Shown: positions 4,867 to 58,403 of the stretch, piece after piece
How positions within the stretch are numbered: the stretch's first letter is position 1
Layout: every line of letters begins with the position of its first letter
Origin: Naegleria gruberi
Lineage: Eukaryota
NCBI GenBank assembly: GCA_000004985.1
Contig: GG738849.1
DNA length: 64,000 nucleotides
Strand: one strand, 5' to 3'
Program-made: the position numbers and the translations under genes
The notes under the pieces: model-generated
What the model was told of the DNA's origin: nothing
Databases searched by the model: none
Seen by the model: the letters and a program-made list of their open reading frames with translations, nothing else

Positions 4867-6599
4867 ATGAAAAAAATGAATCGATTGGTTGTTGGGCGGG
4901 AGCTCGTTCTCCTCGTCTTGTTTTTCGTTTGTTGTTGTCTAGCCTTCGCAAATGCTGCTTCGAACAAGATTCTCGAAGGAAAGACTTCCAATGATGTTGC
5001 ACAATTTAATATTAACTTGGTTGGAAATGGAGCACCATTAAATCATTTTTGGAAAAGATCGGTCGGTAGTTGTCATGCTACTTTTTGTTTGAGAGCAGAT
5101 TGGAGAGAACAATTGAAATTGGCTCAAAAGGAATTGGGATTCACAGGTATTAGATTCCAGTAAGTTTGTTTATTAGTTGAACATAGTGTGTGAGAGAAGA
5201 ATTTGTGTATTTTTGCTTATAATTCGTTTACAATTTTGTTAATATTTTACAATAGTGGTATTTTCAATGATGATATGAGTGTTGTTTTGCAAAGTAGACA
5301 TGATCCTAATGTTCTTCAATATTCATTCTTTAATGTGGATCAATGTTATGATTTCCTTGTTGGTGAATTGAAGATGAAACCAATTATTGAATTGAGTTTC
5401 ATGCCAGAATTGATTGCCAGTGATCCTTCAAAGACTATTTTCCATTACAAGGGTGGTATTTCACCTCCAAAGTCAATGAAAATGTGGAATGATTTGATTT
5501 ATTATTTCGTTACCCATTTAATTGAAAGATATGGATTGGATGAAGTTGCTAGTTGGCATTTTGAAGTTTGGAATGAACCAAATTTGAGAAATACTTTCTG
5601 GACTGGTACTCAACAAGATTATTTCAATCTTTATAATAATACTGCTCATACTATTAAGGGAATTAGTAATAGACTTAGAGTTGGTGGACCAGCAACTGCA
5701 GGATCTGGATGGATTCAAGATTTTGTCAATTATGCCAAGTCTAATAATGTTCCTTATGATTTTGTTTCAACTCACGAATATCCAACTGATATTGAACCTT
5801 TGGCAACTGACACTTTGATTAAAGTTGCCAAGCAAACAAAGAATATTGTTGGACCAAATACTCCATTGCTCTATACTGAATGGAATTCTGGATTGAATAA
5901 TATTGGAAGTGGAACTTATTTCTATCAAGATTCTTCTTATCCAGCTGCTCTCGTTCCAAGAACACTCTTTTCTATTAATGGAGTTGTTGAAGTTTACAGT
6001 TATTGGACTTTTACTGACTTGTTTGAAGAACATGGGTTTGTATTTTTCAATTTTTAATTTTCATAATTTTCCATTTTAATGTTTAATAATTATTTTAATA
6101 TTTTCTTTTTAGTCAATACCCAGAGGTTTTCCAAGAAAACTTTGGCATGATGTCAATCTATGGTGTCAGAAAACCAGTTTGGAGAGCATTCGAATTAATG
6201 GCTAAAGCTGGTAATGAACTTTTCAATTCTACTACCACCTCTACTTCAACTGTCAATGTCTTTGCAACCCTCAACAAGCAAGCAAAGGAAATCATGATCT
6301 TTGCTTCAAATTATCAAGTTCCAACTCAAAAAGCTGAAGCTTTCCTTGTATCTATCAATGTTGACAGCCTTTCCAATACTTTGAGCAATTGCAAGACTCA
6401 TATTATTGATGAAACTAGATCCAATGCCTTCACTAAATGGAAGCAAATTGGCTCACCAACCTACCCAACTCAAAGTCAATTGAAGGAACTCCATACTGCT
6501 TCAACTTTGTTCACTCAAAATATTGAACCAAAGAACGGTAGTACTTTTGTTATTCAAATGGAAAATCCATCATTGCATGTTATTGTGTGTAATGTTTAA
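4867..6599 (+). CDS. Secreted GH39-family glycoside hydrolase (alpha-L-iduronidase/beta-xylosidase-like), 3 exons
   Basis: Signal peptide MKKMNRLVVGRELVLLVLFFVCCCLAFA. Catalytic motifs SWHFEVWNEPN (acid/base) and LLYTEWNSG (nucleophile) as in IDUA/GH39. Exons ~4867-5159, 5256-6035, 6113-6599. Introns 96 nt (GTAAGT..TAG) and 77 nt (GTTTGT..TAG) keep the frame; total 1560 nt = 520 codons. Confidence 0.7.
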
Positions 6600-18600: not shown

Positions 18601-19745
18601 TAATCTTCTTTCTTTCTTCCTTAATGCATACTACATGACATGGACATAATAAACTGTTGAAATTGCCCAATTTTAAAGGATGTTCTTTGACAATACCGGT
18701 TTTGGAATAGTACACAATGCTGCAAGAACTGAAACACAAAACTCCAAACTTAAAAAGCAATAAGCTAATCAATTAATCTAAATTACTCACATTACCTGAC
18801 TCTAGACATGTTGTGGTTGGATGAATGTTGAAAACAGAAAAAGGCCCTATCGATGCTTTTAAAAAAGCACTGGAACTGAATACTCTCGATGTTTCTACCT
18901 GTCCCGTTTCAACCTTAGTTGTAACATCCAAAACGAAACTTGTTAAAAATGTGTGAGGAATGGCAGGCAATGAGTAATTTGAATCGTCATAGTCGCCAAC
19001 ATACTCTTGCAGTAAAACAGCCAATTCAACATTTGTCTCTGAAAGACTTCCTTTTAGAAATCCCATATCCATAATTTTAAATAGTGATTTGGTATTCAAA
19101 GAGGACTGTGGTCTTATTTCAAATACTTTGCTTTCCACTGAAATTGTTGATTTCTGATTATATACAAGCCTAAAGTAATACAAATATTGATTGTATAATG
19201 AGAGAACTATTTCACTAAAATTTCTCATTTTCCTACATCTTCCAATTGGAAATACTGTCCTCTAATAAAATAAGAATTGAATAGTATTGAACTACTCACA
19301 CTTGAATCTTCCAACTTCTTTTCCAAATCAGTAGCACTTTTTTTATCTGAAGCATAGTTCAATAGACACAGTGATCCTTCCTCAATCACAATTATCAACT
19401 GATCCATCTCAATCCTAATCAAAAACCAATTCAACTCATAATCAATCAATAAAATATGATCCAACATCTCATTCATAAATTGCACAGTCATTAATTTAAT
19501 CACTTTCTTTTCAATCTTGTCGAATTGTATTGTTTTGTTTTCAAATGAATCCTCCTCTTTACAATACTTGAAAAAGTGCAATTTGTTTCCCTAAATAATT
19601 TTAAATAATTCAATTAAATAGTCATCATTCTCCGATAAACACAAACCTTCGACTCGAGAGCATACTCTGCATCATCCTTAAAAAACCTTCCATAACAACA
19701 GGCACTTATCGATTGATCTTCCACCAATTGTTTAATATCAATCAT
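15681..19745 (-). CDS. Large beta-propeller protein of the DDB1/CPSF160/SF3b130 (CPSF_A/MMS1_N) family, 6 exons, ~1280 aa
   Basis: Five adjacent minus-strand ORFs join through GT..AG introns of 56, 38, 42, 44 and 42 nt. Exons ~19745-19647, 19590-19300, 19261-18791, 18748-18045, 18000-17706, 17663-15681, total 3843 nt. N-terminus MIDIKQLVEDQSISACCYGRFF...LHFFKY resembles DDB1/SF3B3 N-termini, and IDGDL lies near the C-terminus. The family is clear; which member is not. Confidence 0.45.
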
Positions 19746-28818: not shown

Positions 28819-28937
28819 GGCTACGGCCATATCACGATGAATGCACCTCATCCCGTCCGATTTGAGAAGTTAAGCATCGTCGAGCCACATCAGTACTGAG
28901 GTTGGAGACAACTTGGGAACCTGTGGTGCTGTAGTCT
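28819..28937 (+). rRNA. 5S ribosomal RNA gene (solitary, Pol III) followed by a T-run terminator
   Basis: GGCTACGGCCATATCAC...CCCGTCCGATTTGAGAAGTTAAGC...GTACTGAGGTTGGAGACAACTTGGGAACCTGTGGTGCTGTAGTC fits eukaryotic 5S. Helix I is paired by 5'-GGCTACGGC / GCTGTAGTC-3'. The CCGTCCGAT and GTTAAGC boxes are present, length is ~119 nt, and it is followed at once by TTTTTGTTTT. Confidence 0.8.
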
Positions 28938-28980: not shown

Positions 28981-29277
28981 ACAAATCGTAAATAGCAAAT
29001 AACCAACACATGAAACGATCGAAACGATGAGCAAAATTGCCAAAACACCATACACACCAAATGCTTTTTTCATTTTTTTAAAAATTAAAAAATGATTTCA
29101 AGTCAACCAACAACAGAAACACACCAAAAGAATAAGAAGAAGAATTCTAACAATAATTCAGAGCCAGCATCATTGGAATTACAACCACGATCCAACAATA
29201 AATCCAATTCTAATATAACAATAATAATAATAACAATCAAAAAGTAAACAAAAACAAACCATCATCAACACCTTCCG

Positions 29278-30852
29278 ATGCTGCCTCTACTCCACAACCA
29301 TCAAAAGATCATGAAAAAGCAAATAATAAAAAAGCCTAAGGGCAATGGTGGTAATACTAGCAATAATAATAATCAGAAACAGGAAAAAACAAAACAAGAA
29401 AAAAGACCAAAATCTGCACAAATTGATCATCAAAAAACAAGTCAAAACAAACAAGAAAGCAAATCATCACAATCTGAAAGACCAAAATCTGCACAAAGAG
29501 ATCAAAAATCAATTTCAGAGAACAAACAAGAAACTTTGTCTGAAAAAGATCAAAAATTAAAGAAGGATTCGGTAAAGAAAGATGGGAGACAAGATAGTGT
29601 TGCATATTCTCTTCCCAAGATAGATCGATCATTATTTTCTTATGAATATATTCCAGAATATTCTTTTGAAAATGTTCAAGAATTGATAAAGAATGGAAAT
29701 TTGGAGAAGGCTGCACAAGTTATGAATTTGGTATTGAATCCGTCGATTGAGTGTTTGTGTTATGCTTTGAATGTTAATCAACGGATTAACAATTCGAAGA
29801 AAGTGGCAGAGATTGGAGCAAGAATAGACAAATTGGTTGGTTTGAAAGCTAAAGCTAAGAAAATCAAATTGAATTATAATTGGAAACAAATTTGGCCCTA
29901 TTTGGATTATTTAATTGATGAAACTTGCAAGGATAGTTCAATAATTGAAAGAGAAATTGAGTTTAACCTTAAAAGTTCGAAATGTGAATCTTACACAGAG
30001 GAGGACGACAGTGCTATTACCAAATACTGTGAATGGAATGAAGAGTATTTCAAGCAGTTACGTTATCCCTTTGCGTTTGGTACTGGACGAAACAATTTCT
30101 TGACCTCGTACATTAAATTATCAAATTACACCATGAAAGAAATGGAAGCAAGAAAATTAGATTTTCATTTCTTTAAAGGAGAAATGAGTGAAGAAAATAT
30201 TTGCCCATCAACATTTTATAATTTGATTGCTAGAGTTGGATTGACAAGGGATCATTTATTAAATGGTAAACATGGTTTCAAGGATATGATTCGTGTTTTT
30301 CCATATAAAGTGGAAAGCTCACTAGCCAACTCGGAAAGTTTTTCTCAAGATGTTGAGAAATATATCAATAACAAGTTGGAAAATACCCATCAACCCTACG
30401 TTGTGTTTGTCTTTTCATTTGACAGTGATTTTACAGTCAAGAGAGGTATTGTAAATTACTACAATGCATTTAACATCTACCCAAGTGCCACAATTATTGA
30501 GACAACAGAAAATAGAGTTTACTATTGCTTTGAAAACAATAGAAAGAAAACTATTGATCTCCACAAAATGTCAGTCGAGGAGGCAAAAACAAGAGTACTC
30601 GAACTCATTCAAGAACGATATGAATACAGAGACAGAGAGTTCAGTATAATAACTGGTAAAGGAAATCATGTGAATGAGAATGGAACCTCTGGTGTGCTTC
30701 GTGAATTGATTGGAAAGTTATTGAAAGAGCATCCTCTTGTGGAATCAGCAAAACTTTTAGAGGGAAAGTATGTGGTTAAAATCAAAGAAAGACCATTTGA
30801 TTTCTTGGAACAAGATTGGATTGAATTTAAAAAGACTCAGTACAACAAATGA
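29278..30852 (+). CDS. Smr (small MutS-related) domain protein with a K/Q/S-rich N-terminus
   Basis: C-terminal MSVEEAKTRVLELIQERYEYRDREFSIITGKGNHVNENGTSGVLRELIGKLLKEH matches the Smr domain. The stop is TGA. A 51-codon upstream ORF with an A-run Kozak context (ATG ~29093) is in the same frame, separated by a single TAA. Confidence 0.6.
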   Translation: MLPLLHNHQKIMKKQIIKKPKGNGGNTSNNNNQKQEKTKQEKRPKSAQIDHQKTSQNKQESKSSQSERPKSAQRDQKSISENKQETLSEKDQKLKKDSVKKDGRQDSVAYSLPKIDRSLFSYEYIPEYSFENVQELIKNGNLEKAAQVMNLVLNPSIECLCYALNVNQRINNSKKVAEIGARIDKLVGLKAKAKKIKLNYNWKQIWPYLDYLIDETCKDSSIIEREIEFNLKSSKCESYTEEDDSAITKYCEWNEEYFKQLRYPFAFGTGRNNFLTSYIKLSNYTMKEMEARKLDFHFFKGEMSEENICPSTFYNLIARVGLTRDHLLNGKHGFKDMIRVFPYKVESSLANSESFSQDVEKYINNKLENTHQPYVVFVFSFDSDFTVKRGIVNYYNAFNIYPSATIIETTENRVYYCFENNRKKTIDLHKMSVEEAKTRVLELIQERYEYRDREFSIITGKGNHVNENGTSGVLRELIGKLLKEHPLVESAKLLEGKYVVKIKERPFDFLEQDWIEFKKTQYNK

Positions 30853-30941: not shown

Positions 30942-31958
30942 ATGTCAAAACGCCAAAAGCTCGATTCTTCAGTGATTGTTTCAACAGATGAGATGGGAGT
31001 GATAATTTCCTTTGTGGACACATCAAGAACTTTTAACAATCTCTCACTATGTAACAAATCCATCAAGAAACAGTGTGAATTAATTATGGAAAGAGCGAAT
31101 GATAAAATTTCCTTTTTCAGAGGTTTGGAAGTGGATCCACGATTGTCTCTGATGAGAGCACAAGGAATGGGATGGAAGGTTCCGAGATGGGCACACGATG
31201 AGGTATTAAAAGGAGGATTGGATTTATTGATTTATTACAAGACATTCTTGTAGGTTTAGTTTGAAATTAACGTGTGAGAAATTTTATTCTATAGTCGTTC
31301 ACCTGGAGGAAATACTGATGAATTCATGCTGAAATTTAAGGTTTCATTCAGTGCAGAGGCTGAAATGAAGGTCATGAGATCGAAGGTTCATTGTGCTGAT
31401 GGATTTTATACTCGTATTAGACCATTCGAAAGTAAGGTTGAAAGAAAGTGGACTAATCTTTTGGAGGCTATTGAAAAACAATCATTTGAAAAGAAAACAG
31501 ATTATGAAAGTTTGAAAGTCAATACTGAGGGTCACAATGAAGATTATTTCTATACTATTCTAGATGAAGTTCATGGCTGTGAAAAATTTAACACTGACGA
31601 ATATCATGGAAAATGGACTTTTGTAAACCTTCAAGTTTCACACAAGAATGAAAAGATTTTCTCGATTGTAAGAAGGGCTGTTCATAAAGAAAAGCTTGAC
31701 ACCAATTCAGTAGATTCAAATCCAATTGCTCAAAAATTATTTGATGAATTACAAGAATTTTGTCAAGTGAGTCAAATTGCTGAATGTGAACATGATGAAT
31801 GTGAAGATTTTGAAAATGATATGATTTATGAATGTTCTAAATCAGGAATTGAAATGCACCAGACAGAAGCAGAAGTGGACGAGATTGAAGTAGATGATGA
31901 AGAACGTGATAATAGTAATATTAGAGATGTTTTGCATCGATTGATTGAGGACTATTAA
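30942..31958 (+). CDS. Hypothetical 2-exon protein (~323 aa), weak F-box-like N-terminus, acidic C-terminus
   Basis: Track ORFs 30942-31253 and 31326-31958 are joined by a 45-nt GTAGGT..TATAG intron (31250-31294). This removes the in-frame stop and gives 308 + 664 nt = 324 codons. Confidence 0.4.
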
Positions 31959-32044: not shown

Positions 32045-34537
32045 TTACAATTTATCACAATAATCAGTGTAGAGAGGAATTTCTTCCTTCAAGCCCTTTC
32101 TTATTCTAACATCTTTGATGAGTTGGTTTGCTTTAGATTGAGGATTGTAAACATCATCTTGCATAACTTGCCAATGACTGAATCTAAATTGAGAAAATGT
32201 TTGATTTTGAGATTCTTCTCTCAGTTTCTCGTCCCATCCAAAACTTTCAATCACAGGGAGGTAACCAGAAATGACCACAAGGGGAGATGGATTAATTATT
32301 GTTGTGTTAATTATATTACCTCTTCTGTTAAAAATATCTCTGTAAACTGAACTTGTGAATGATTCATTGGATTGAACCTCAAAATGATACATTGGTTCTA
32401 CTAATTTTGGTTCAGCTCTCAGTTGACTAGCGAGCATGAGTTTAGCGCTAACTCCAACCAATTGACCTGCTCCTCTGTGAATGGAATCGGCGTGCAAATG
32501 ACAATCATGTAATTTGAAAAGAACACCTCTCATGACCTCATCACACAAACCACCCGAAGCAGTACTTATTTGAAAACCTATCGTTACATATTGCTGAATT
32601 TCATTAAGATAGCTAGTTGATTTGGATGCATTGACGAGTATGTTGGTTCTAGAGTGTGTATCTGGGCCGAAACTCCATATATTCTTTGAAATAGTCTTGT
32701 CCCATCCAAAATCATTTTCCATAATTTCAGCTATCTTTTCTTGTTCATCCATTGGAAATTGATCTCCACTTATTAATTCTATCAAGTCTTCACTAATAGG
32801 TTCCGCTTGCATGTATAGACGGTTGTGTTTGTTGGGACTTTTCCTCATTAGCATTTCTTCACTAGGATAACTAGAAACAGTTTCATGAAAATTAACGAAA
32901 TACGGTGATTTTTTGATCTGAATATCCTTTGTGAATTCTTGCAAATGACACGTTTCTAAATGGTATTCACTTTCTGCACCTAGAACACATTGTCCTGAAT
33001 CATTGAACTTGCATGATAAATTAACATTGCTCTGTATGAGTTGTTTCAAACGCTCAACAAAATTTGGCAAATCTGAAGGGTTGGTTGGCTCAACACTCAT
33101 CGAAACAATAGGACTCATATATTGTCTTATACCCTTAATTGGCATACATGCAACTCCACCTTCTTCTGTGAATGTGCACGATTTGATAAAATACTTATCC
33201 AAACCAACAATACCAATTATTGAGCCACAATACGCTCTATCAATACACTCAATGTTTGTACCAGATAGCAATAATAATCTTGCAGCACTTGTATGAAAAA
33301 CATCCTTCTTGGTTTTAAAGTTGGGGCCCAATATTCTAATTGTTGTCGATTGAGAGAAAGAACCTGAAAAGACACGAGCCAAAGCAATTGAATCACCACT
33401 GTATGTGCATTTTGGTGGTAACATCTTACTCACATACACAACCAATGGTCCATATGGATCACATTCCTTGATTCCAGTTGCATACGGATCTGTCAAGTCT
33501 TCACCAGTGTAGAGAATATCATATTTGGTTTTTTGAGCTTCCTTGGGAGAAGGCAAATGATCAATAATCATTTGAATGAGTGATTTCCGAAGAGGAAGAA
33601 ACTTTTTCATAATGACCTCGATGAGCTGTTTCGAATTTCCTTTCTTTTCCTCTCGAGAAAGGTGGATTAATAGTGTATCTAGAGTTTGTTCAAATCCAAC
33701 TGATAACATGCCTTGATCAGAGGGAATGTGGGCTCGAGCAAGATTGAAAATCTTAAAAATTGGTGCCAATATAAATTCAGAGAAAGTATGGTTCAATTGT
33801 TGACCTGTTGTGGACGAATAGGGTTGTCTTGTGAACTTTTTAATTGACCTGTCATAGTAATAATCTCCCCACAACTTTTTGATTAACTTTTCTCTTGAAA
33901 TGTTAAATTTTGAACTGTAGAATTGAGCAAAGTTATTGAGATTGAAAGCCCAACCCATCCTAGCAGAACCAAACACAACATTACAATCAACTGGATCAAG
34001 AAGATAACTATTCGATTCTTCATTGGAATATGCAGAAAGAGTGACATTAACAGACTCTATAATTCTAACAATAATTCGATAGCTTTCCTCCTCAGTCAAT
34101 TGTAACTCATTAATGAGACGGTCAATCTTGTTAATGAAAAGAATAGGTTTTACTCTTTCTTGTGCAACTTGTCTAACCAATGTTTGTGTTGGACTATGAC
34201 CCTCAACTGCATCTACAACAATGATAGTTCCATCACTAATATTCATTGCACTGACCGTTTGATAATTCATAAAAGCAGGACAATCAATCAAGTTGACCAA
34301 ATGAAGATCATCTTTTTTGGTTGGATTTTCATAAATCAAACTATAATCATTTGATAAATTATTCTCAATTTCATCATGATTTGCTTCCAAATCATCTGCA
34401 AACTTATTTTCTTCAATCAATTTCCGAGTTAGGGTTGATTTACCATGATCCACATGAGCAATGATACTAATATTTCGAATATTGTCATAATTTCGTAATA
34501 GATGATCAATCTTTTCTTTTCTATTGTTGTTGATCAT
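32045..34537 (-). CDS. EF2-family GTPase, EFL1/Ria1-like (ribosome-assembly GTPase), with a degenerate switch II
   Basis: G1 AHVDHGKST, G4 NKID, and an EF2-family C-terminus HADSIHRGAGQ...ESFGW are present. It is far more divergent than true EF2. The first real ATG is MINNNRKEK at 34537 (track start 34597 is GTG). Where EF2/EFL1/Snu114 have DSPGH, this protein has DCPAF. Confidence 0.7.
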   Translation of the reverse strand: MINNNRKEKIDHLLRNYDNIRNISIIAHVDHGKSTLTRKLIEENKFADDLEANHDEIENNLSNDYSLIYENPTKKDDLHLVNLIDCPAFMNYQTVSAMNISDGTIIVVDAVEGHSPTQTLVRQVAQERVKPILFINKIDRLINELQLTEEESYRIIVRIIESVNVTLSAYSNEESNSYLLDPVDCNVVFGSARMGWAFNLNNFAQFYSSKFNISREKLIKKLWGDYYYDRSIKKFTRQPYSSTTGQQLNHTFSEFILAPIFKIFNLARAHIPSDQGMLSVGFEQTLDTLLIHLSREEKKGNSKQLIEVIMKKFLPLRKSLIQMIIDHLPSPKEAQKTKYDILYTGEDLTDPYATGIKECDPYGPLVVYVSKMLPPKCTYSGDSIALARVFSGSFSQSTTIRILGPNFKTKKDVFHTSAARLLLLSGTNIECIDRAYCGSIIGIVGLDKYFIKSCTFTEEGGVACMPIKGIRQYMSPIVSMSVEPTNPSDLPNFVERLKQLIQSNVNLSCKFNDSGQCVLGAESEYHLETCHLQEFTKDIQIKKSPYFVNFHETVSSYPSEEMLMRKSPNKHNRLYMQAEPISEDLIELISGDQFPMDEQEKIAEIMENDFGWDKTISKNIWSFGPDTHSRTNILVNASKSTSYLNEIQQYVTIGFQISTASGGLCDEVMRGVLFKLHDCHLHADSIHRGAGQLVGVSAKLMLASQLRAEPKLVEPMYHFEVQSNESFTSSVYRDIFNRRGNIINTTIINPSPLVVISGYLPVIESFGWDEKLREESQNQTFSQFRFSHWQVMQDDVYNPQSKANQLIKDVRIRKGLKEEIPLYTDYCDKL

Positions 34538-34617
34538 GTTGTGATTTTCAAAAAGTACTGCAAACTCCTCCGAAATTGTGAATAATTGTGTGCACACAAG
34601 TTGAAGAGCTATTTTTT

Positions 34618-36363
34618 TTAATGCTTCAAATTCAAAATTGAATGATTTTTACACCACAGAACACAAAGAAATGAAAAATTGAAAAGTATTACAACTTTAT
34701 ATTCTTCATCATTAAAATCAGAAAGCTCCTCCTGATCAAATATGATATTATCCTCCTCATCGAGAATCAATTCTTCTTCATCTTCAATATCAAAATCTTC
34801 ATCTCTGTAGAACTCGACAACGTCATCTGCTTGCCACAAATTCTTGAAGAGCAATTTGTGGCTGAAACCTTTCATTTCAAAGTGGTTCTTCATTGTATCA
34901 AAGCTTTCTTCCAAAAGTTTGAGATTTTGATTGAGGAATTGACCGCTGACAGAAGAGTTTAGAGTTTCTTGGTATTGGGAAATGACTCTTGATATGGTTT
35001 CGTCTTTTCCAATGAGTTCTTGGTAGATTTCAATGGCATGTTTGACATTTTGTAATGCAAATTCAATGTTGGCTTTCAAACCTTCAAGGATGTAGGTCTC
35101 AGTTTCGAATATCATTAATTCTTTAGCTACATTTCTATCAGTACTATTTCTGTCTTCAAACAACTGACCAAGTTTCTTCATTGATTCGTTAATTTGTTGA
35201 ATAAATGTTTTGGAAGCTTCTTCTCTCAAATAAATGCATTGATTAGAAACGGAATCAATTCTTCTTAATAATCTTTCGAATATTATTCCAAGTTTCTCAT
35301 CTTCCCATTTAAAGGTACCAAATTGTTTAGATGGCTCATTAATAATTTTTTCTTTCATTTCCTTAATGAAAATACATGCATTCGGAAACATGCATTCTAA
35401 TCTTGCTCTCAAAATCTTTACAATAATTCTATTTTGACGTGTGGTCATAATTGTGATTCTTCTAAGCTTTGGATTGGCGATTTCACTCAAAGTTCCAGTG
35501 TTTAATCTAATGAATGTTTCTGGAATGACAACATGTTCAAAAACCGATATTTTTCTCATAATTTCATCTAAGGATAAACTACATTCCTCATTTAGAATGG
35601 TCAAATCAGAAACTTTCAGATTGGATGTATCTCTAATTGTCCATGGTGGATATTTTACAGTGATGGAAGAGCACAAACTGGACGATTCTTCAAAAAGCTC
35701 CAACTCGTCAATTCTGTTGAGAAAGAGTTTCTTTAGAGGTCTTTGATTTTTGTAGAATGAAAATTTGTTAATACCAAAATCTGTCAAATTTGAATAGTTA
35801 TTGGGATTGACACTTGTTAAATTTTGTTGATCAATGATATGTAATTTTTCCAAGCCATTGATTTTGCACTTTTTACAGAACTCGACCATGTCATTGGTGT
35901 CAATGATGGTAAGGGATTTGAAACATTTCACTATTTCTCTAGCAGATGTTCTATCCCAAACTCTTGCTTTTTCTTTAAATTCAATAGCATTACACTTATC
36001 AATGATGAGCTTGTTGATTTTGCTTTTTCTTGGATTTAACATTGAATGAATATCAGAATATTTCAAATTAATCTTGGAACTTTTCAAGCAAATCAATCAG
36101 CTTATTGTCAAATAGTCAATATTCATCAAACGAATCTTGAGTTTGGCTGACTCGTTTGAAATATGCATTGGTAACATTGCACTCAAAACTTCAATATCCT
36201 TAATACTCGATACAATAACACCTTCTCTTCTGTTAAGTAACTTAACTAATTCCCATTGAGTAGCACTCAAATCTTCATCGAAACCTATTTCAGTAGGTGG
36301 ATGTAATGCAAAGTGCTTTCCGCCACCAAGAGAATACAAACAACCAGCAATTGCTGAGTTCAC
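34618..36363 (-). CDS. F-box-like/leucine-rich protein interrupted by one in-frame TGA (possible pseudogene or read-through)
   Basis: Track ORFs 36097-36363 (88 aa, real ATG) and 34618-36096 are directly adjacent in the same frame: ...NIDYLTIS-TGA-LICLKSSKIN... No GT..AG intron can remove the stop. Confidence 0.35.
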
Positions 36364-36498
36364 TACTCTTTAAAATATTATTACACCGAGTGAGGAACAA
36401 AATTGAAAAATAGTATTTGTAAACTTTCTTTATATAGAGCTCACATGCTTGTTTGGTTAAATAAATTGTAATTGTAAAAACTGCACATTAAAAAAAAA

Positions 36499-38274
36499 AT
36501 GTTTGGAAAACTATTGCTCACTGTTTTCATCGTCATCTTTATGGCACAGGAAAGCAGCGGTTGCACTCTTCAGAATTGGCGATATGAAAAGAACACGTAT
36601 GGGAAGCTAACAGTTCAAGAGAATAAGAGCAACAAAACATACTTGTTCAATATTGTTGATAATCTCCAAATGTTACATGTCAGAAAACACACTGTCTTTT
36701 TGTCATTCTTTGATATATCCTACTTTGATCAGAAGATTAACATGAATTTGAGTGGAACATCAAATTATTTGGATGTCATTCAACAAGTGAAAGGATGTTT
36801 CGATACTTCCTTGGCTGAACTGTTCATTTGCTATGCCATTTCCAACAGAAGATTTGAATGCTTTTTAGTGAAGGAGCAAAGTATTGAACATCCAACCATT
36901 AAACAGCTCAATTACATCCCCTACTCGATTATCATTTTGATTCAATTTTCCATTTCCGTTTTAATAACAATTTATATGGGATGTTGTAATAAGAAAATTT
37001 ATGGTACAACTAAACAAACTCAGAAAAATACCAATCCAGAACCACAAACCAAGAAAAAACCCCTACAGAGGGAGAAGTCCACGCCGCCTTCAACAAACAA
37101 TGATGACATTGAACTAGATGAACAACAGGTCCAACAAACACATGAACATGGTGAGGATGATGGTGAGGATGATGCGGCTCAAGACGAAACAAATTTAATA
37201 GAAAGAACCACTACCTCTTCCACAGAACAAGATGAAAAACCTACCTCTTCCTTTTCCACTTTTTCCGTTGTTGTCTTGTTTTTAATATCAAGAACGCTAC
37301 GCCAGAAAATCCCTTTTGTGAGCAAGTTGAACGAAAACACTTTCACAGGAAAAAACATGTTTTTGTGGGTGGGCTGTTTTTGTGTTGGATGGTTTGTTTT
37401 TATGGAAGATTTTTTTCCAGAAACCATTATCCCCATCATTTGTGGAATAGTATTAGCAAAGCTTGTGGTGAGTTTGATTTTGGACTACACATCCAATGAG
37501 CGTTTAACAGAGTGGAGTGAAGTAATTTATTTTTTATGTAGGTGTATGATGGGTGCTATTTTTTTGATTGCAATTGTTATTTACATGATCACCAGAACAA
37601 AAAAATTTTACGGGTACAGTGAAAATATGATTGGTGAAAAATTAGTCTATTGAATTGATTTCTCTTCCTCCATTGTGATCATTATTGCTTCTTGTTTTAG
37701 TTGGCTAATTTATTCAGAATGGAATTCATATAATCATCAAGAAAATCCTTTTTTAAATGTCTTTAAAGACTTTATCCGCCAATCGCAAATCACTTCCACC
37801 TTATCTGGATTTTTCATTGTAATTGTAATTAGAGAAATATGTGAGGATTCATATATTTTGTACTCATTGGAACTAGTTAACCCTCTGGTAATCCCCTTAC
37901 TAATGATTATCGTTGAGGGTTACTTTTTTCATAAAATCAGTATAAAAATGCTTGTAACAGCAGAGGAAAAGTTGAGCAATAAGAATTACAATATGATGCA
38001 TGCAATGTATGAGTGCACAATAGATAACCTCGTCAAGCTGTTGGCCATTACATTATCTGTATGCTTATTGATAGTCATGGTTATTTTCTCTGTCTACCAG
38101 TTTAAACTCAAAGGAATGGAGTTTGTTAGTTCTCTCATAGTGGGTGCTCATGTTTCCATTCAGTTTTGGATGGATACTCATGAAGAAAGTTATAGTTCAG
38201 AAGTTTCTAAAACGGTTGAAAAATACTGCGCAGAAACCAACCATCATCATGATCAGATATTAAAATCCATCTAA
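36499..38274 (+). CDS. Signal-peptide multi-TM membrane protein; two same-frame ORFs separated by a single TGA
   Basis: Signal peptide MFGKLLLTVFIVIFMAQESSG, then TM segments and an acidic cytoplasmic stretch. ORF A ends with TGA at 37651-37653. ORF B (37675) is in the same frame, 21 nt later, and continues the TM-rich composition. No intron fits. Confidence 0.35.
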
Positions 38275-53608: not shown

Positions 53609-55472
53609 ATGATAATTTCGGAACGACCAACAATGCAAATATCTTGCTCAACATCTAACACATCAGGTTCTTCTAATTCTTCTTCATCGAAGAAAAAACC
53701 ATACAAATCAGCTCTCCGTGAGGAGATGGCAAAAACATTTAACAAATTTATAGTTCAAGAAAGAGAGCAGAAAGTAAATGGAGAATCAAAGGCTAAACCT
53801 CTATTTGTAACAACACCATTAACCGCAGTATGCCCATCAAGTAATATCTTTCAACAAGGCTTATCTCAAGATACACCACATTCTGCTAAAGCCATCGGTA
53901 GTTTTAATCAAAGTATATTTGATTCATTATCATCACCAACTCCAAAACAAACAACAGAAATTAATTCATTCCAATATGTAACATTCTCAGAAGATGATGA
54001 TGAATACGCAAAACCGATTGATGATCTAAATAGTTTTATACAAACATATTTATCAGCAATAATTGATGATGAAGAAGAATATGATGATGGAGATGGTTTT
54101 TCTCTCATTACATCAAAACCAAAACCTTTAAAAACAAATTTTGACCTTGATTCAACAACAAGTACAATAAGCACAACAACAGATTATTCCTTCGATGATG
54201 AACCACCAACTCCAAAAACAAAACCAAATATTTCCACGTTTGGAGGTTGTGGTGGATTTGGCTTTGATTTTACTAGTTTGCCACCAAAAAACACATTTTC
54301 ATTTTCTGATGATCAAGGAGAATCACTGAAAAAACCACACAGTTTCACATCAACAACAACAAAGCAATTCCCTAAAAAAGCCAGTGTTGATCTCTTTGCA
54401 AAACCAATTCAATATGACAGATTAGATGATGAATTTCAAGTAAGTATTATTATTTTGTATTATTTCTGATCTAGTTTAATAGTCACTCAAAAAATTTGAA
54501 ACAAGATTACAAAGAAAGAGTGGAATGCATACAAGTGCATATAGACAACATAATTTAACAAAGAATAGGTATAAAAACATTCTTCCAAATGAGAATACAA
54601 GAGTATTACTCCAATCAAAGGAAAGATGTGAACCTGGATCAGATTATATCAATGCAAATCATATTATTACCCAAACAACTCAAAATTTCAAAAGAATTAA
54701 ATTATCCCCTCCACCTACCTATATTGCCACTCAAGCCCCTTTACCTTGTACATTTGCTGATTTTTGGAGAATGATCGTTGAGCATAATAGTACAATTATT
54801 GTAATGCTCAGTAGTGAAGTGCTATCTTCAGATTCAGAGAGTGATGAAAGTAACAATGCTGATCAATTTGATCAATGTTTTAATAAGAACAAGGTGAATA
54901 AGTATTGGCCTTCACTCTACGAGAAAAAACTTTATGGAGATATTGAAGTTGAAACAATTTCGGAAGAACAAACAACTTATGATTTCGTTTATAGACAATT
55001 TTTAGTTTTTGGAGATGGTCTGCCTGATTCTGGTAAGAAGATTCATTTCTATCAATATACAGGTTGGCCTGATATGGGAGTTCCAGATAGTACAGTTTCA
55101 TTCTTTAAATTAATAGAGTGCATTGACAATCTGATGACACAACCAAATTACCCAAATGGTCCAATTACTATCCATTGGTAAGTAGTAATATTTTTAATTT
55201 TCAATAATTAATAATTTAATATTAGCTCGGCAGGTGTTGGTAGAACTGGAACATTTTGTACAATACATATTCTCCTTTCTCAGTACAAGGAGTACCTAAG
55301 TTTACCAAAAGAAGAGCGAGATAACGATAATCCGTTTGATTTTAACATTTATAAAATTGTAAAACAACTGAAAAATTTGAGAGTAGGAATGGTGCAAAGA
55401 AAGGAACAATATAGATATTGCTACTATGGTGTTCGGGATGGAATTAAAGAAATACACTCACAATTTTTTTAA
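53609..55472 (+). CDS. Classical protein tyrosine phosphatase (PTP domain) with S/T-rich N-terminus, 3 exons
   Basis: Exons ~53609-54439, 54483-55177, 55226-55472 (1773 nt = 591 codons). Motifs NRYKNILPNENTRV and WPDMGVP. The catalytic IHCSAGVGRTG is split by a 48-nt GTAAGT..TTAG intron inside the Cys codon (TG|C). The C-terminal QTxEQYxF-like motif is present. Confidence 0.8.
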
Positions 55473-58024: not shown

Positions 58025-58211
58025 ATAATCACATTGTATATTGGACACCGAACGAATATCAAACTTTTACAATTTTAGAGATTTGTAAAACACAAGAAAT
58101 TGAATTCACATAGGTTTTTATTCTTTTGTTGAAATCTAAAAAGATTTCGTTGGAATAATTTATTTGAAATTACATAAATGCAACAAAAATTTCAGGGGCT
58201 CGCCACGTTTA

Positions 58212-58282
58212 CCGTCTCGGGAGGAATCGAACCTCCGTCAATGGATTCAAAGTCCACTATGCTACCATTACACCACGAGACG
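58212..58282 (-). tRNA. tRNA-Gln (anticodon UUG), intronless, 71 nt
   Basis: Minus-strand sequence CGTCTCGTGGTGTAATGGTAGCATAGTGGACTTTGAATCCATTGACGGAGGTTCGATTCCTCCCGAGACGG. It has a 7-bp acceptor stem, a GTGGA/TCCAT anticodon stem with loop CTTTGAA, and a T-arm GGAGG-TTCGATT-CCTCC. It aligns closely to typical eukaryotic tRNA-Gln(UUG). A T-run lies ~20 nt downstream. Confidence 0.8.
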
Positions 58283-58403
58283 AGCACATTATTTATATCA
58301 ACACCCCCAAGTGCTTAAATACTCTTCCATTAAGGGGATATCGTTTTCAAGCTGTTTTTCAACACTCTCCGAATTTTTGATCATTTAAATCAATTAGAAA
58401 AAT

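What the first reader, a model, noticed from the sequence alone, without database searches (positions are those of the whole stretch)
36090..36105. In-frame TGA splits an F-box-like N-terminus from its leucine-rich body
An 88-aa ORF (real ATG, F-box-like) and a 492-aa ORF are adjacent in the same frame with only TGA between them (...NIDYLTIS|TGA|LICLKSS...). No GT..AG intron of compatible phase can remove it. The context U-L-I-C resembles a UxxC redox motif, but there is no other selenoprotein signature. Candidates are a recent pseudogene in an expanding F-box family, programmed read-through, or a base-call error.
Basis: seen in the sequence. Interest (0 to 1): 0.5.

Follow-up and report, generated by a model that had tools for sequence, protein, structure and literature searches.

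The report
Ordinary stop upstream of orphan gene
A TGA stop codon in the amoeba Naegleria gruberi really does separate an 88-codon coding-looking stretch from an annotated species-specific gene, but it behaves like an ordinary stop (a recent truncating mutation, a base-call error or a gene boundary), not like a recoded codon.

Summary
The window is Naegleria gruberi nuclear DNA. The TGA at 36097-36099 (minus strand) is real. Downstream lies the annotated gene NAEGRDRAFT_62865 (474 aa), which starts at the next ATG (36042). Upstream lie 90 stop-free codons in the same frame (chance about 0.002). Their codon usage is as good as that of real genes and beats every control, so they are or recently were coding.

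- The 88-aa ORF has no start ATG. The first in-frame ATG is 26 codons before the TGA.
- Pfam finds no F-box and no LRR.
- The gene is an orphan with no paralogues or orthologues, although other Naegleria proteomes are in the database.

No SECIS element, leaky stop context, downstream RNA structure or UGA-reading tRNA was found, and no credible intron removes the TGA.

Most likely the TGA is a plain stop: a recent nonsense change (or base-call error) in a former N-terminal extension that has also lost its start. A separate small upstream ORF sharing the frame by chance is the main rival. Reads and transcripts, which I could not access, would decide. Interest is low.

The parts
36097..36099 (-). 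The in-frame TGA (context AGC TGA TTG; +4 base is T)
36100..36369 (-). Upstream 90-codon stop-free stretch, coding-like and in the same frame as the gene, bounded 5' by TAA 36370-36372. It has no start ATG; in-frame ATGs occur only at 36177, 36168 and 36126.
36043..36096 (-). 18 stop-free codons between the TGA and the annotated ATG. This is too short to say whether it is coding (LLR 0.29).
34618..36042 (-). Annotated CDS NAEGRDRAFT_62865 / XP_002681728.1, 474 aa plus TAA, with no intron. It is an orphan protein with an irregular Leu/Ile-rich N-terminal half and a helical, coiled-coil-like acidic C-terminal half.
36368..36488 (-). Only short-intron route to a start codon: exon ATG 36488-36445 plus a 77-nt intron 36444-36368 (GTGAGC...TTTTAAAG). 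It is weak: AAG acceptor, heuristic score 4.09, and the ATG lies 10 nt from the divergent neighbour's ATG.
   Evidence: the resulting 104-aa product is not in any database
36499..38274 (+). Divergent neighbour NAEGRDRAFT_62866. It is annotated as 384 aa ending at its own in-frame TGA (37651-37653), which is followed by a 206-codon same-frame ORF. A plausible 84-nt T-rich intron (37634-37717) would remove that TGA.

Best explanation
The TGA is an ordinary termination codon in the assembled Naegleria gruberi sequence. It interrupts what was until recently a longer reading frame of a lineage-specific orphan gene. The 90 codons upstream are the remnant of an N-terminal extension that acquired a nonsense change. 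A single base change from TGG, TGT/C, TTA, TCA, AGA, CGA or GGA would do it, and the change is either a real mutation, possibly one allele of a heterozygous strain, or a base-call error in the draft assembly. The extension also lacks an intact start codon.

The gene as it stands is expressed, if at all, from the first ATG after the stop (36042), which is how the public annotation models it (474 aa).

Shown: the stop, the shared frame, the coding signature on both sides, the missing ATG, the annotated model, and the absence of recoding signals. Inferred: that the two parts were once one ORF, and that the change is recent (no second stop or frameshift in 90 codons).
For: - Coding signature of the upstream stretch in the gene's frame: p(stop-free) about 0.002, and codon-usage LLR 0.32-0.33 against control maxima of 0.275 and 0.287.
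- An independent downstream gene would be in frame with no intervening stop only about 8% of the time.
- The annotated model starts at the first ATG after the TGA.
- No in-frame ATG exists for the upstream stretch until 26 codons before the TGA, and only a weak first-exon candidate exists.
- No SECIS.
- No RNA structure 3' of the stop.
- TGA is not a general sense codon here: the longest ORFs are unchanged when TGA is read through, and TGA-terminated ORFs do not systematically stay open.
- No credible intron. Clear introns in the window are 38-96 nt and T-rich (0.42-0.53), with GTAAGT/GTGAGT-type donors and TAG/CAG acceptors. Short candidates spanning the TGA have GTCAGC/GTTACC/GTTTTG donors and AAG acceptors with no pyrimidine tract, and score 3.0-3.2 against 4.2-6.5.
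Against: - With no homologue of either part anywhere, continuity of the two parts cannot be shown by comparison.
- The upstream stretch has no start codon. A once-longer ORF therefore needs a second lesion or an unrecognised first exon, and a first exon would sit almost on top of the divergent neighbour's start.
- The coding score dips to 0.06-0.11 in the 15-20 codons just before the TGA.
- A real mutation cannot be told from a sequencing error without reads.
- The adjacent gene also has an in-frame TGA, an odd coincidence if such lesions are rare.
Confidence: 0.5

Rival explanations
1. There are two separate units. The TGA is the normal stop of a small independent upstream gene or upstream ORF, for example a 104-aa two-exon product from ATG 36488, or a 26-codon uORF from ATG 36177. 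The annotated gene starts 55 nt later and shares the frame by chance.
For: - Genes here are packed very tightly: the target's own stop is only 80 nt from the next gene's ATG.
- The 18 codons between the TGA and the ATG are too few to call coding.
- The coding score dips just before the TGA, as it might at a C-terminus.
- The annotation treats the TGA as lying outside the gene.
Against: - Same frame plus 18 stop-free codons has a chance of about 0.08.
- The upstream unit has no good start. It needs a 77-nt intron with a weak AAG acceptor and an ATG 10 nt from the divergent neighbour's ATG.
- The hypothetical 104-aa product is not in any database and has no homologue.
- A 26-codon uORF would not explain a coding signature spread over 90 codons.
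Confidence: 0.2
2. A weak or unconventional spliceosomal intron spans the TGA, so that the mature mRNA joins the upstream stretch to the body in frame.
For: - The other same-frame stop-split ORF pairs in this window look like exactly this: 18773-18775 (TAA) and possibly 37651-37653 (TGA) lie inside short T-rich introns.
- 261 in-frame GT..AG pairs exist.
- There is a local dip in coding score before the TGA.
- My splice heuristic separates real from false introns only moderately.
Against: - All short candidates (72-129 nt) use GTCAGC, GTTACC or GTTTTG donors and AAG acceptors with no pyrimidine tract.
- Composition around the TGA (T 0.38) is not intron-like (0.42-0.53).
- The best-scoring candidate (3.82) is 213 nt, far longer than the introns seen here, and would delete 71 coding-like codons.
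- The product would still lack a start codon.
Confidence: 0.08
3. The UGA is recoded: either selenocysteine insertion (N. gruberi has the Sec machinery) or programmed read-through, for example by near-cognate tRNA-Trp, producing a protein of about 580 aa.
For: - Coding-like sequence lies on both sides in one frame.
- N. gruberi encodes SPS2 and other Sec machinery (PMC4561486, citing da Silva et al. 2013).
- A second in-frame TGA sits in the adjacent gene.
Against: - No SECIS in 33600-36500 at E <= 10, none in the window at gathering score, and none in my own core scan.
- The 3' UTR is at most about 80 nt before the next gene's ATG.
- There is no homologue with Cys or Sec at this position, and no redox fold or domain.
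- The +4 base is U, not the leaky C/CUAG context (established knowledge), and no 3' structure is present.
- There is no start codon upstream, so nothing would deliver ribosomes to this UGA in frame except from ATG 36177.
- The window's only tRNA is Gln(UUG).
Confidence: 0.04

Closest known systems
Nonsense-truncated gene / young unitary pseudogene (or null allele) re-annotated from a downstream ATG
   Same: A single in-frame stop with an intact coding signature on both sides and no further stops or frameshifts. The gene model begins at the next methionine.
   Different: No parent, paralogue or orthologue exists to show the original codon. The upstream part also lacks a start codon. Whether the truncated product is functional is unknown.
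Eukaryotic selenoprotein genes (UGA-Sec with 3'-UTR SECIS)
   Same: An in-frame UGA in an organism that has the Sec machinery, with an open frame continuing after it.
   Different: There is no SECIS, no Cys/Sec homologues and no redox domain. The 3' UTR is too short, and the U-x-x-C resemblance rests on four residues only.
Programmed stop-codon read-through (e.g. UGA-CUAG contexts, viral and metazoan extensions)
   Same: A UGA followed by a long open frame.
   Different: The long conserved part usually lies before the leaky stop, not after it. Here the context is UGA-U, there is no stimulatory structure, and no start codon lies upstream.
F-box/LRR (FBXL-type) proteins
   Same: To the eye there are a few Leu/Ile-rich 'LxxLxIID'-like segments on both sides of the TGA. 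This is a subjective lead only.
   Different: There is no Pfam F-box, F-box-like or LRR match at E <= 10, no family members, and an uninformative structure model (pLDDT 34).

Membership tests
Eukaryotic selenoprotein gene | In-frame UGA with coding sequence continuing downstream | tested here: met
Eukaryotic selenoprotein gene | SECIS element in the 3' UTR | tested here: not met
   Rfam scan of 33600-36500 at E <= 10 gives no SECIS family. The whole window at gathering score gives only 5S rRNA and a tRNA. My own ATGA..AA..GA helix scan finds 0 strict candidates. Only about 80 nt separate the stop from the next gene's ATG.
Eukaryotic selenoprotein gene | Homologues with Cys or Sec aligned to the UGA; redox-type fold | tested here: not met
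   No homologues at all and no Pfam domain.
Eukaryotic selenoprotein gene | Organism has the Sec insertion machinery | not tested
   Taken from the literature only: SPS2 fusions in N. gruberi (PMC4561486).
F-box protein | F-box domain (PF00646 / PF12937 and relatives) near the N-terminus | tested here: not met
   hmmscan of the 88-aa piece at E <= 1 and of the 312-aa read-through N-terminus at E <= 10 gives 0 families.
F-box protein | Membership of a paralogous family in the genome | tested here: not met
   The only database hit is the gene itself. There is no paralogue in the window.
Leucine-rich repeat protein | Tandem LRR units detectable by profile or motif | tested here: not met
   No Pfam LRR hit and one loose motif match. 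The AF2 model is unusable.
Programmed stop-codon read-through | Leaky stop context or stimulatory 3' RNA structure | tested here: not met
   The context is UGA-U. The 107 nt 3' of the stop fold at -10.5 kcal/mol, z = +1.10, and 173 of 200 shuffles fold at least as well.
Programmed stop-codon read-through | Translation across the stop (footprints, peptides) and conservation of the arrangement | not testable with these tools
   No orthologues exist and no expression data are accessible. No paper mentions the locus.
Intron-contained stop | GT..AG intron with this genome's features: 38-96 nt, GTAAGT/GTGAGT-like donor, T-rich, TAG/CAG acceptor | tested here: not met
   The best short candidates score 3.0-3.2 against 4.2-6.5 for putative real introns. 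The result is not absolute, because the heuristic is crude.
Nonsense-disrupted gene / pseudogene | A coding signature on both sides of a single stop in one frame | tested here: met
Nonsense-disrupted gene / pseudogene | An intact relative or allele with a sense codon at the position | not testable with these tools
   No homologue, no other copy in metagenome contigs, and no reads available.

The most novel reading that the evidence does not exclude
The UGA, and perhaps the one in the adjacent gene 62866, is decoded at some frequency, either by near-cognate read-through (for example as Trp) or by SECIS-independent or non-canonical Sec insertion. N. gruberi would then make N-terminally extended or full-length forms of young orphan proteins from frames that look interrupted.
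Probability: 0.04. Interest if true: 0.6.

Novelty: already known. Interest (0 to 1): 0.15.

Why it matters
It matters little beyond annotation. At most it flags NAEGRDRAFT_62865 as a recently truncated, lineage-specific gene, or marks a base error in the draft assembly. It also points to a probable annotation problem in the neighbouring gene 62866.

It would matter only if translation across the UGA were shown. That would be an unusual recoding event in a heterolobosean that is known to use selenocysteine.

Tried and rejected
- **Alternative genetic code (TGA as sense).** Rejected. The longest ORFs do not change when TGA is read through, and ORFs ending in TGA do not systematically stay open.
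- **Selenocysteine.** Rejected for lack of a SECIS.
- **Read-through signals.** None found.
- **Homology.**
  - The word-indexed search of the read-through product found only the annotated gene.
  - The exhaustive HMMER search added only a diatom BRCA2-repeat protein. It matches a short repeated 'KLGxxFE' tail and is spurious.
  - The metagenome protein-pattern scan and an exact DNA scan with the codon left free both found nothing.
  - The neighbour's read-through product also has no homologue.
- **Exact look-ups of encoding contigs.** These failed for both the EF2-like gene and the target.
- **Structure.** The single-sequence AlphaFold2 model of the 581-aa read-through product had mean pLDDT 34, so I did not run a fold search.
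- **Internal repeat between the upstream piece and the body.** BLASTP gives E = 5.3. The 'LxxLxIID' resemblance across the TGA is by eye only.
- **First-exon search.** 130 combinations were found, none convincing.
- **Literature.** No paper mentions either locus tag or read-through in Naegleria.

Full report
**What the window is.** The window has 33% GC and is gene-dense, with long and mostly intronless ORFs that usually end in TAA. The body of the finding matches, at 100% identity, a 474-aa 'predicted protein' of Naegleria gruberi. Its identifiers are NAEGRDRAFT_62865, XP_002681728.1 and UniProt D2V236, and it lies on an 850-kb contig. The downstream gene is annotated 'elongation factor 2 [Naegleria gruberi]'. 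This is nuclear DNA of a heterolobosean amoeba that uses the standard code.

**The observation.**
- On the minus strand a TGA occupies 36099-36097.
- Downstream, the same frame is open for 492 codons, to TAA at 34620-34618.
- Upstream, it is open for 90 codons, back to TAA at 36372-36370.

The arrangement is not a chance open frame. A dinucleotide-model simulation gives about 0.002 for 88 stop-free codons. The upstream stretch scores 0.32-0.33 bits per codon on a codon-usage log-likelihood trained on 16 long ORFs of the window. Real genes score 0.30 +/- 0.11. The stretch's score is above all 71 stop-free ORFs nested in other frames of real genes (max 0.287) and above all 300 simulated stop-free stretches (max 0.275). 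Its two other frames score about -0.5 to -0.7. So the TGA does sit between two coding-like segments in one frame.

- The '88-aa ORF with a real ATG' has no start ATG. The ORF tool begins it at GTG because it uses the bacterial table. In frame, the first ATGs are at 36177, 36168 and 36126, only 26, 23 and 9 codons before the TGA. The next one, at 36042, is the annotated start.
- Pfam reports no F-box, F-box-like or LRR domain. This holds for the 88-aa piece (E <= 1), for the body (only sub-threshold coiled-coil noise) and for the 312-aa read-through N-terminus (E <= 10).
- A canonical LRR motif scan finds one loose match.
- The statement that no GT..AG intron of compatible phase exists is literally false. 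Because both sides are open in one frame, 261 in-frame GT..AG pairs keep the frame open. The relevant question is whether any of them is credible.

**No family.** The word-indexed search of 5.8 billion proteins with the 581-aa read-through product returned only the annotated 474-aa protein. An exhaustive HMMER scan of 1.84 billion representatives returned that protein (query residues 108-581) plus one weak hit. The weak hit is a diatom BRCA2-repeat protein that matches only a short repeated 'KLGxxFE'-like tail, so it is spurious. Nothing matches the upstream 88 residues. As a control, the neighbouring EF2-like gene retrieves proteins of N. lovaniensis, N. fowleri, Willaertia magna and Acrasis kona, so relatives are in the database. 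The target is therefore an N. gruberi-specific or very fast-evolving orphan. There is no paralogue in the window, and metagenome scans by protein pattern and by exact DNA with the codon left free found nothing. 'Expanding F-box family' is therefore refuted.

**Intron test.** Clear introns in this window are 38-96 nt and T-rich (0.42-0.53). They start GTAAGT, GTGAGT or GTAGGT and end in TAG or CAG: 5160-5255, 54440-54482, 55178-55225, 31250-31294 and 19299-19262. Two other same-frame ORF pairs split by a single stop exist in the window.
- At 18773-18775 (TAA) the stop lies inside a typical GTAATG/GTGAGT...TTTCAG intron.
- At 37651-37653 (TGA, in the divergent neighbour) a plausible 84-nt intron with a pyrimidine-rich 3' half would remove the stop.

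This pattern made a fair test of the target necessary.
- Short in-frame candidates spanning the target TGA (72-129 nt) use GTCAGC, GTTACC or GTTTTG donors and AAG acceptors with no pyrimidine tract. They score 3.0-3.2 or lower on my crude heuristic, against 4.2-6.5 for putative real introns.
- The best-scoring candidate (3.82) is 213 nt and would delete 71 coding-like codons.
- Composition around the TGA (T 0.38, C 0.10) lies between coding and intron values.
- A sliding coding score shows only a modest dip (0.06-0.11) in the 15-20 codons before the stop, no deeper than dips inside the undisputed body.

I consider an intron unlikely (about 8%) but not excluded without transcripts.

**Recoding tests.** N. 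gruberi does have selenocysteine machinery (PMC4561486), so Sec had to be taken seriously.
- Rfam finds no SECIS family in 33600-36500 even at E <= 10. At gathering score the whole window holds only a 5S rRNA and a tRNA.
- My own scan for the ATGA..AA..GA core with flanking helices found no strict candidate between 36096 and 33900.
- The gene's stop is only 80 nt from the next gene's ATG (34537), which leaves little room for a 3' UTR element.
- There is no homologue with Cys or Sec at this position and no redox domain.
- For read-through, the +4 base is U rather than the leaky C/CUAG context (established knowledge). The 107 nt after the stop fold no better than shuffles (z = +1.10; 173 of 200 shuffles fold at least as well).
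- TGA is not a general sense codon. The eight longest ORFs are unchanged when TGA is read through. After the five long ORFs that end in TGA, the next open stretch is 206, 30, 27, 12 and 9 codons, so only the neighbour stands out.
- The window's only tRNA is Gln(UUG).
- Without an upstream start codon, ribosomes would reach this UGA in frame only from ATG 36177.

**The missing start.** A search of all ATG + GT..AG combinations upstream gave 130 open solutions, none convincing. The only short one is ATG 36488 followed by a 77-nt intron (36444-36368, GTGAGC...TTTTAAAG). It has a weak AAG acceptor and scores 4.09. Its ATG lies 10 nt from the divergent neighbour's ATG at 36499, which would require head-to-head overlapping transcripts. 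The corresponding 104-aa product is in no database. The upstream stretch is therefore coding-like but has no evident way to be translated. That fits a relic better than a working exon.

**Best explanation (about 0.5).** The TGA is an ordinary stop that recently interrupted a longer frame of this orphan gene. The upstream 90 codons are the remnant of an N-terminal extension that has also lost, or never shows, its start. The present gene is read from ATG 36042, as annotated. 'Recently' is inferred from the absence of any further stop or frameshift and from the undiminished codon usage. Whether the change is a fixed mutation, one allele of a heterozygous strain (Naegleria is treated as diploid and heterozygous; PMC9928731) or a base-call error cannot be decided without reads.

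**Main rival (about 0.2).** The upstream stretch may be a separate small gene or uORF whose normal stop is this TGA. Sharing the frame with no intervening stop then has a chance of about 0.08. Against that, genes are packed very tightly here.

**Other rivals.** An unconventional intron (about 0.08) and recoding (about 0.04) follow. The remainder is unassigned.

**What led nowhere.**
- The AlphaFold2 single-sequence model was unusable (mean pLDDT 34), so I ran no fold search.
- BLASTP between the upstream piece and the body is not significant (E = 5.3). By eye, 'LKIRLMNIDYL' upstream resembles 'INKLIIDKCNAI', 'FKSLTIIDTNDM' and 'LEKLHIIDQQNL' in the body. This would favour one protein, but I could not make it statistical.
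- Exact look-ups of encoding contigs failed.
- No paper mentions the loci.

**Verdict.** The sequence observation is real, but its decoration (ATG, F-box, LRR, family) is not. Nothing points to recoding. This is an ordinary stop at or near the 5' boundary of an annotated orphan gene, most likely a recent truncation or a base error. Interest is low.

Noticed in passing
window 36499-38274 (+); TGA at 37651-37653: The divergent neighbour NAEGRDRAFT_62866 is annotated as 384 aa ending at a TGA. A 206-codon same-frame ORF with more hydrophobic, TM-like segments follows directly. An 84-nt T-rich intron (37634-37717, G|GTGAAA...TTATTCAG|AA) would give a 563-aa product that is not in the databases. 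So the annotation is probably truncated, or this is a second TGA-interrupted gene next to the first. It too has no homologues.
   Followed up: partly
window 32048-34537 (-): The gene annotated 'elongation factor 2' is a strongly divergent EF2 paralogue. [quoted passage not shown] Pfam domains II and III fall below cut-off. Its ATG lies only 80 nt after the target gene's stop.
   Followed up: partly
window 18729-18795 (-): An in-frame TAA (18773-18775) separates 162- and 243-codon same-frame ORFs. It lies inside a typical short intron (GTAATGTGAGT...TGTGTTTCAG). This shows that same-frame 'stop-split' ORFs in this genome are often just introns. The exact donor/acceptor pair was not resolved.
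   Followed up: partly
window 28819-28937 (+) and 58211-58283 (-): A 5S rRNA gene (105 bits) and a tRNA-Gln(UUG) gene lie among the protein-coding genes.
   Followed up: no
window 34618-34700 (-): The last ~25 residues of the annotated target protein (VVILFNFSFLCVLWCKNHSILNLKH) follow an acidic tail and look like non-coding read-on. The true C-terminus or a short 3' intron may be mis-modelled. A GTAAAA...TTTGCAG candidate (34652-34558) would even join it to the frame upstream of the EF2-like gene, which seems unlikely.
   Followed up: no
window 29092-29247 (+): The 534-codon ORF at 29248-30852 is preceded, across a single TAA, by a 52-codon same-frame stretch with a coding-like score (0.26). 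This is probably another upstream exon or intron case.
   Followed up: no
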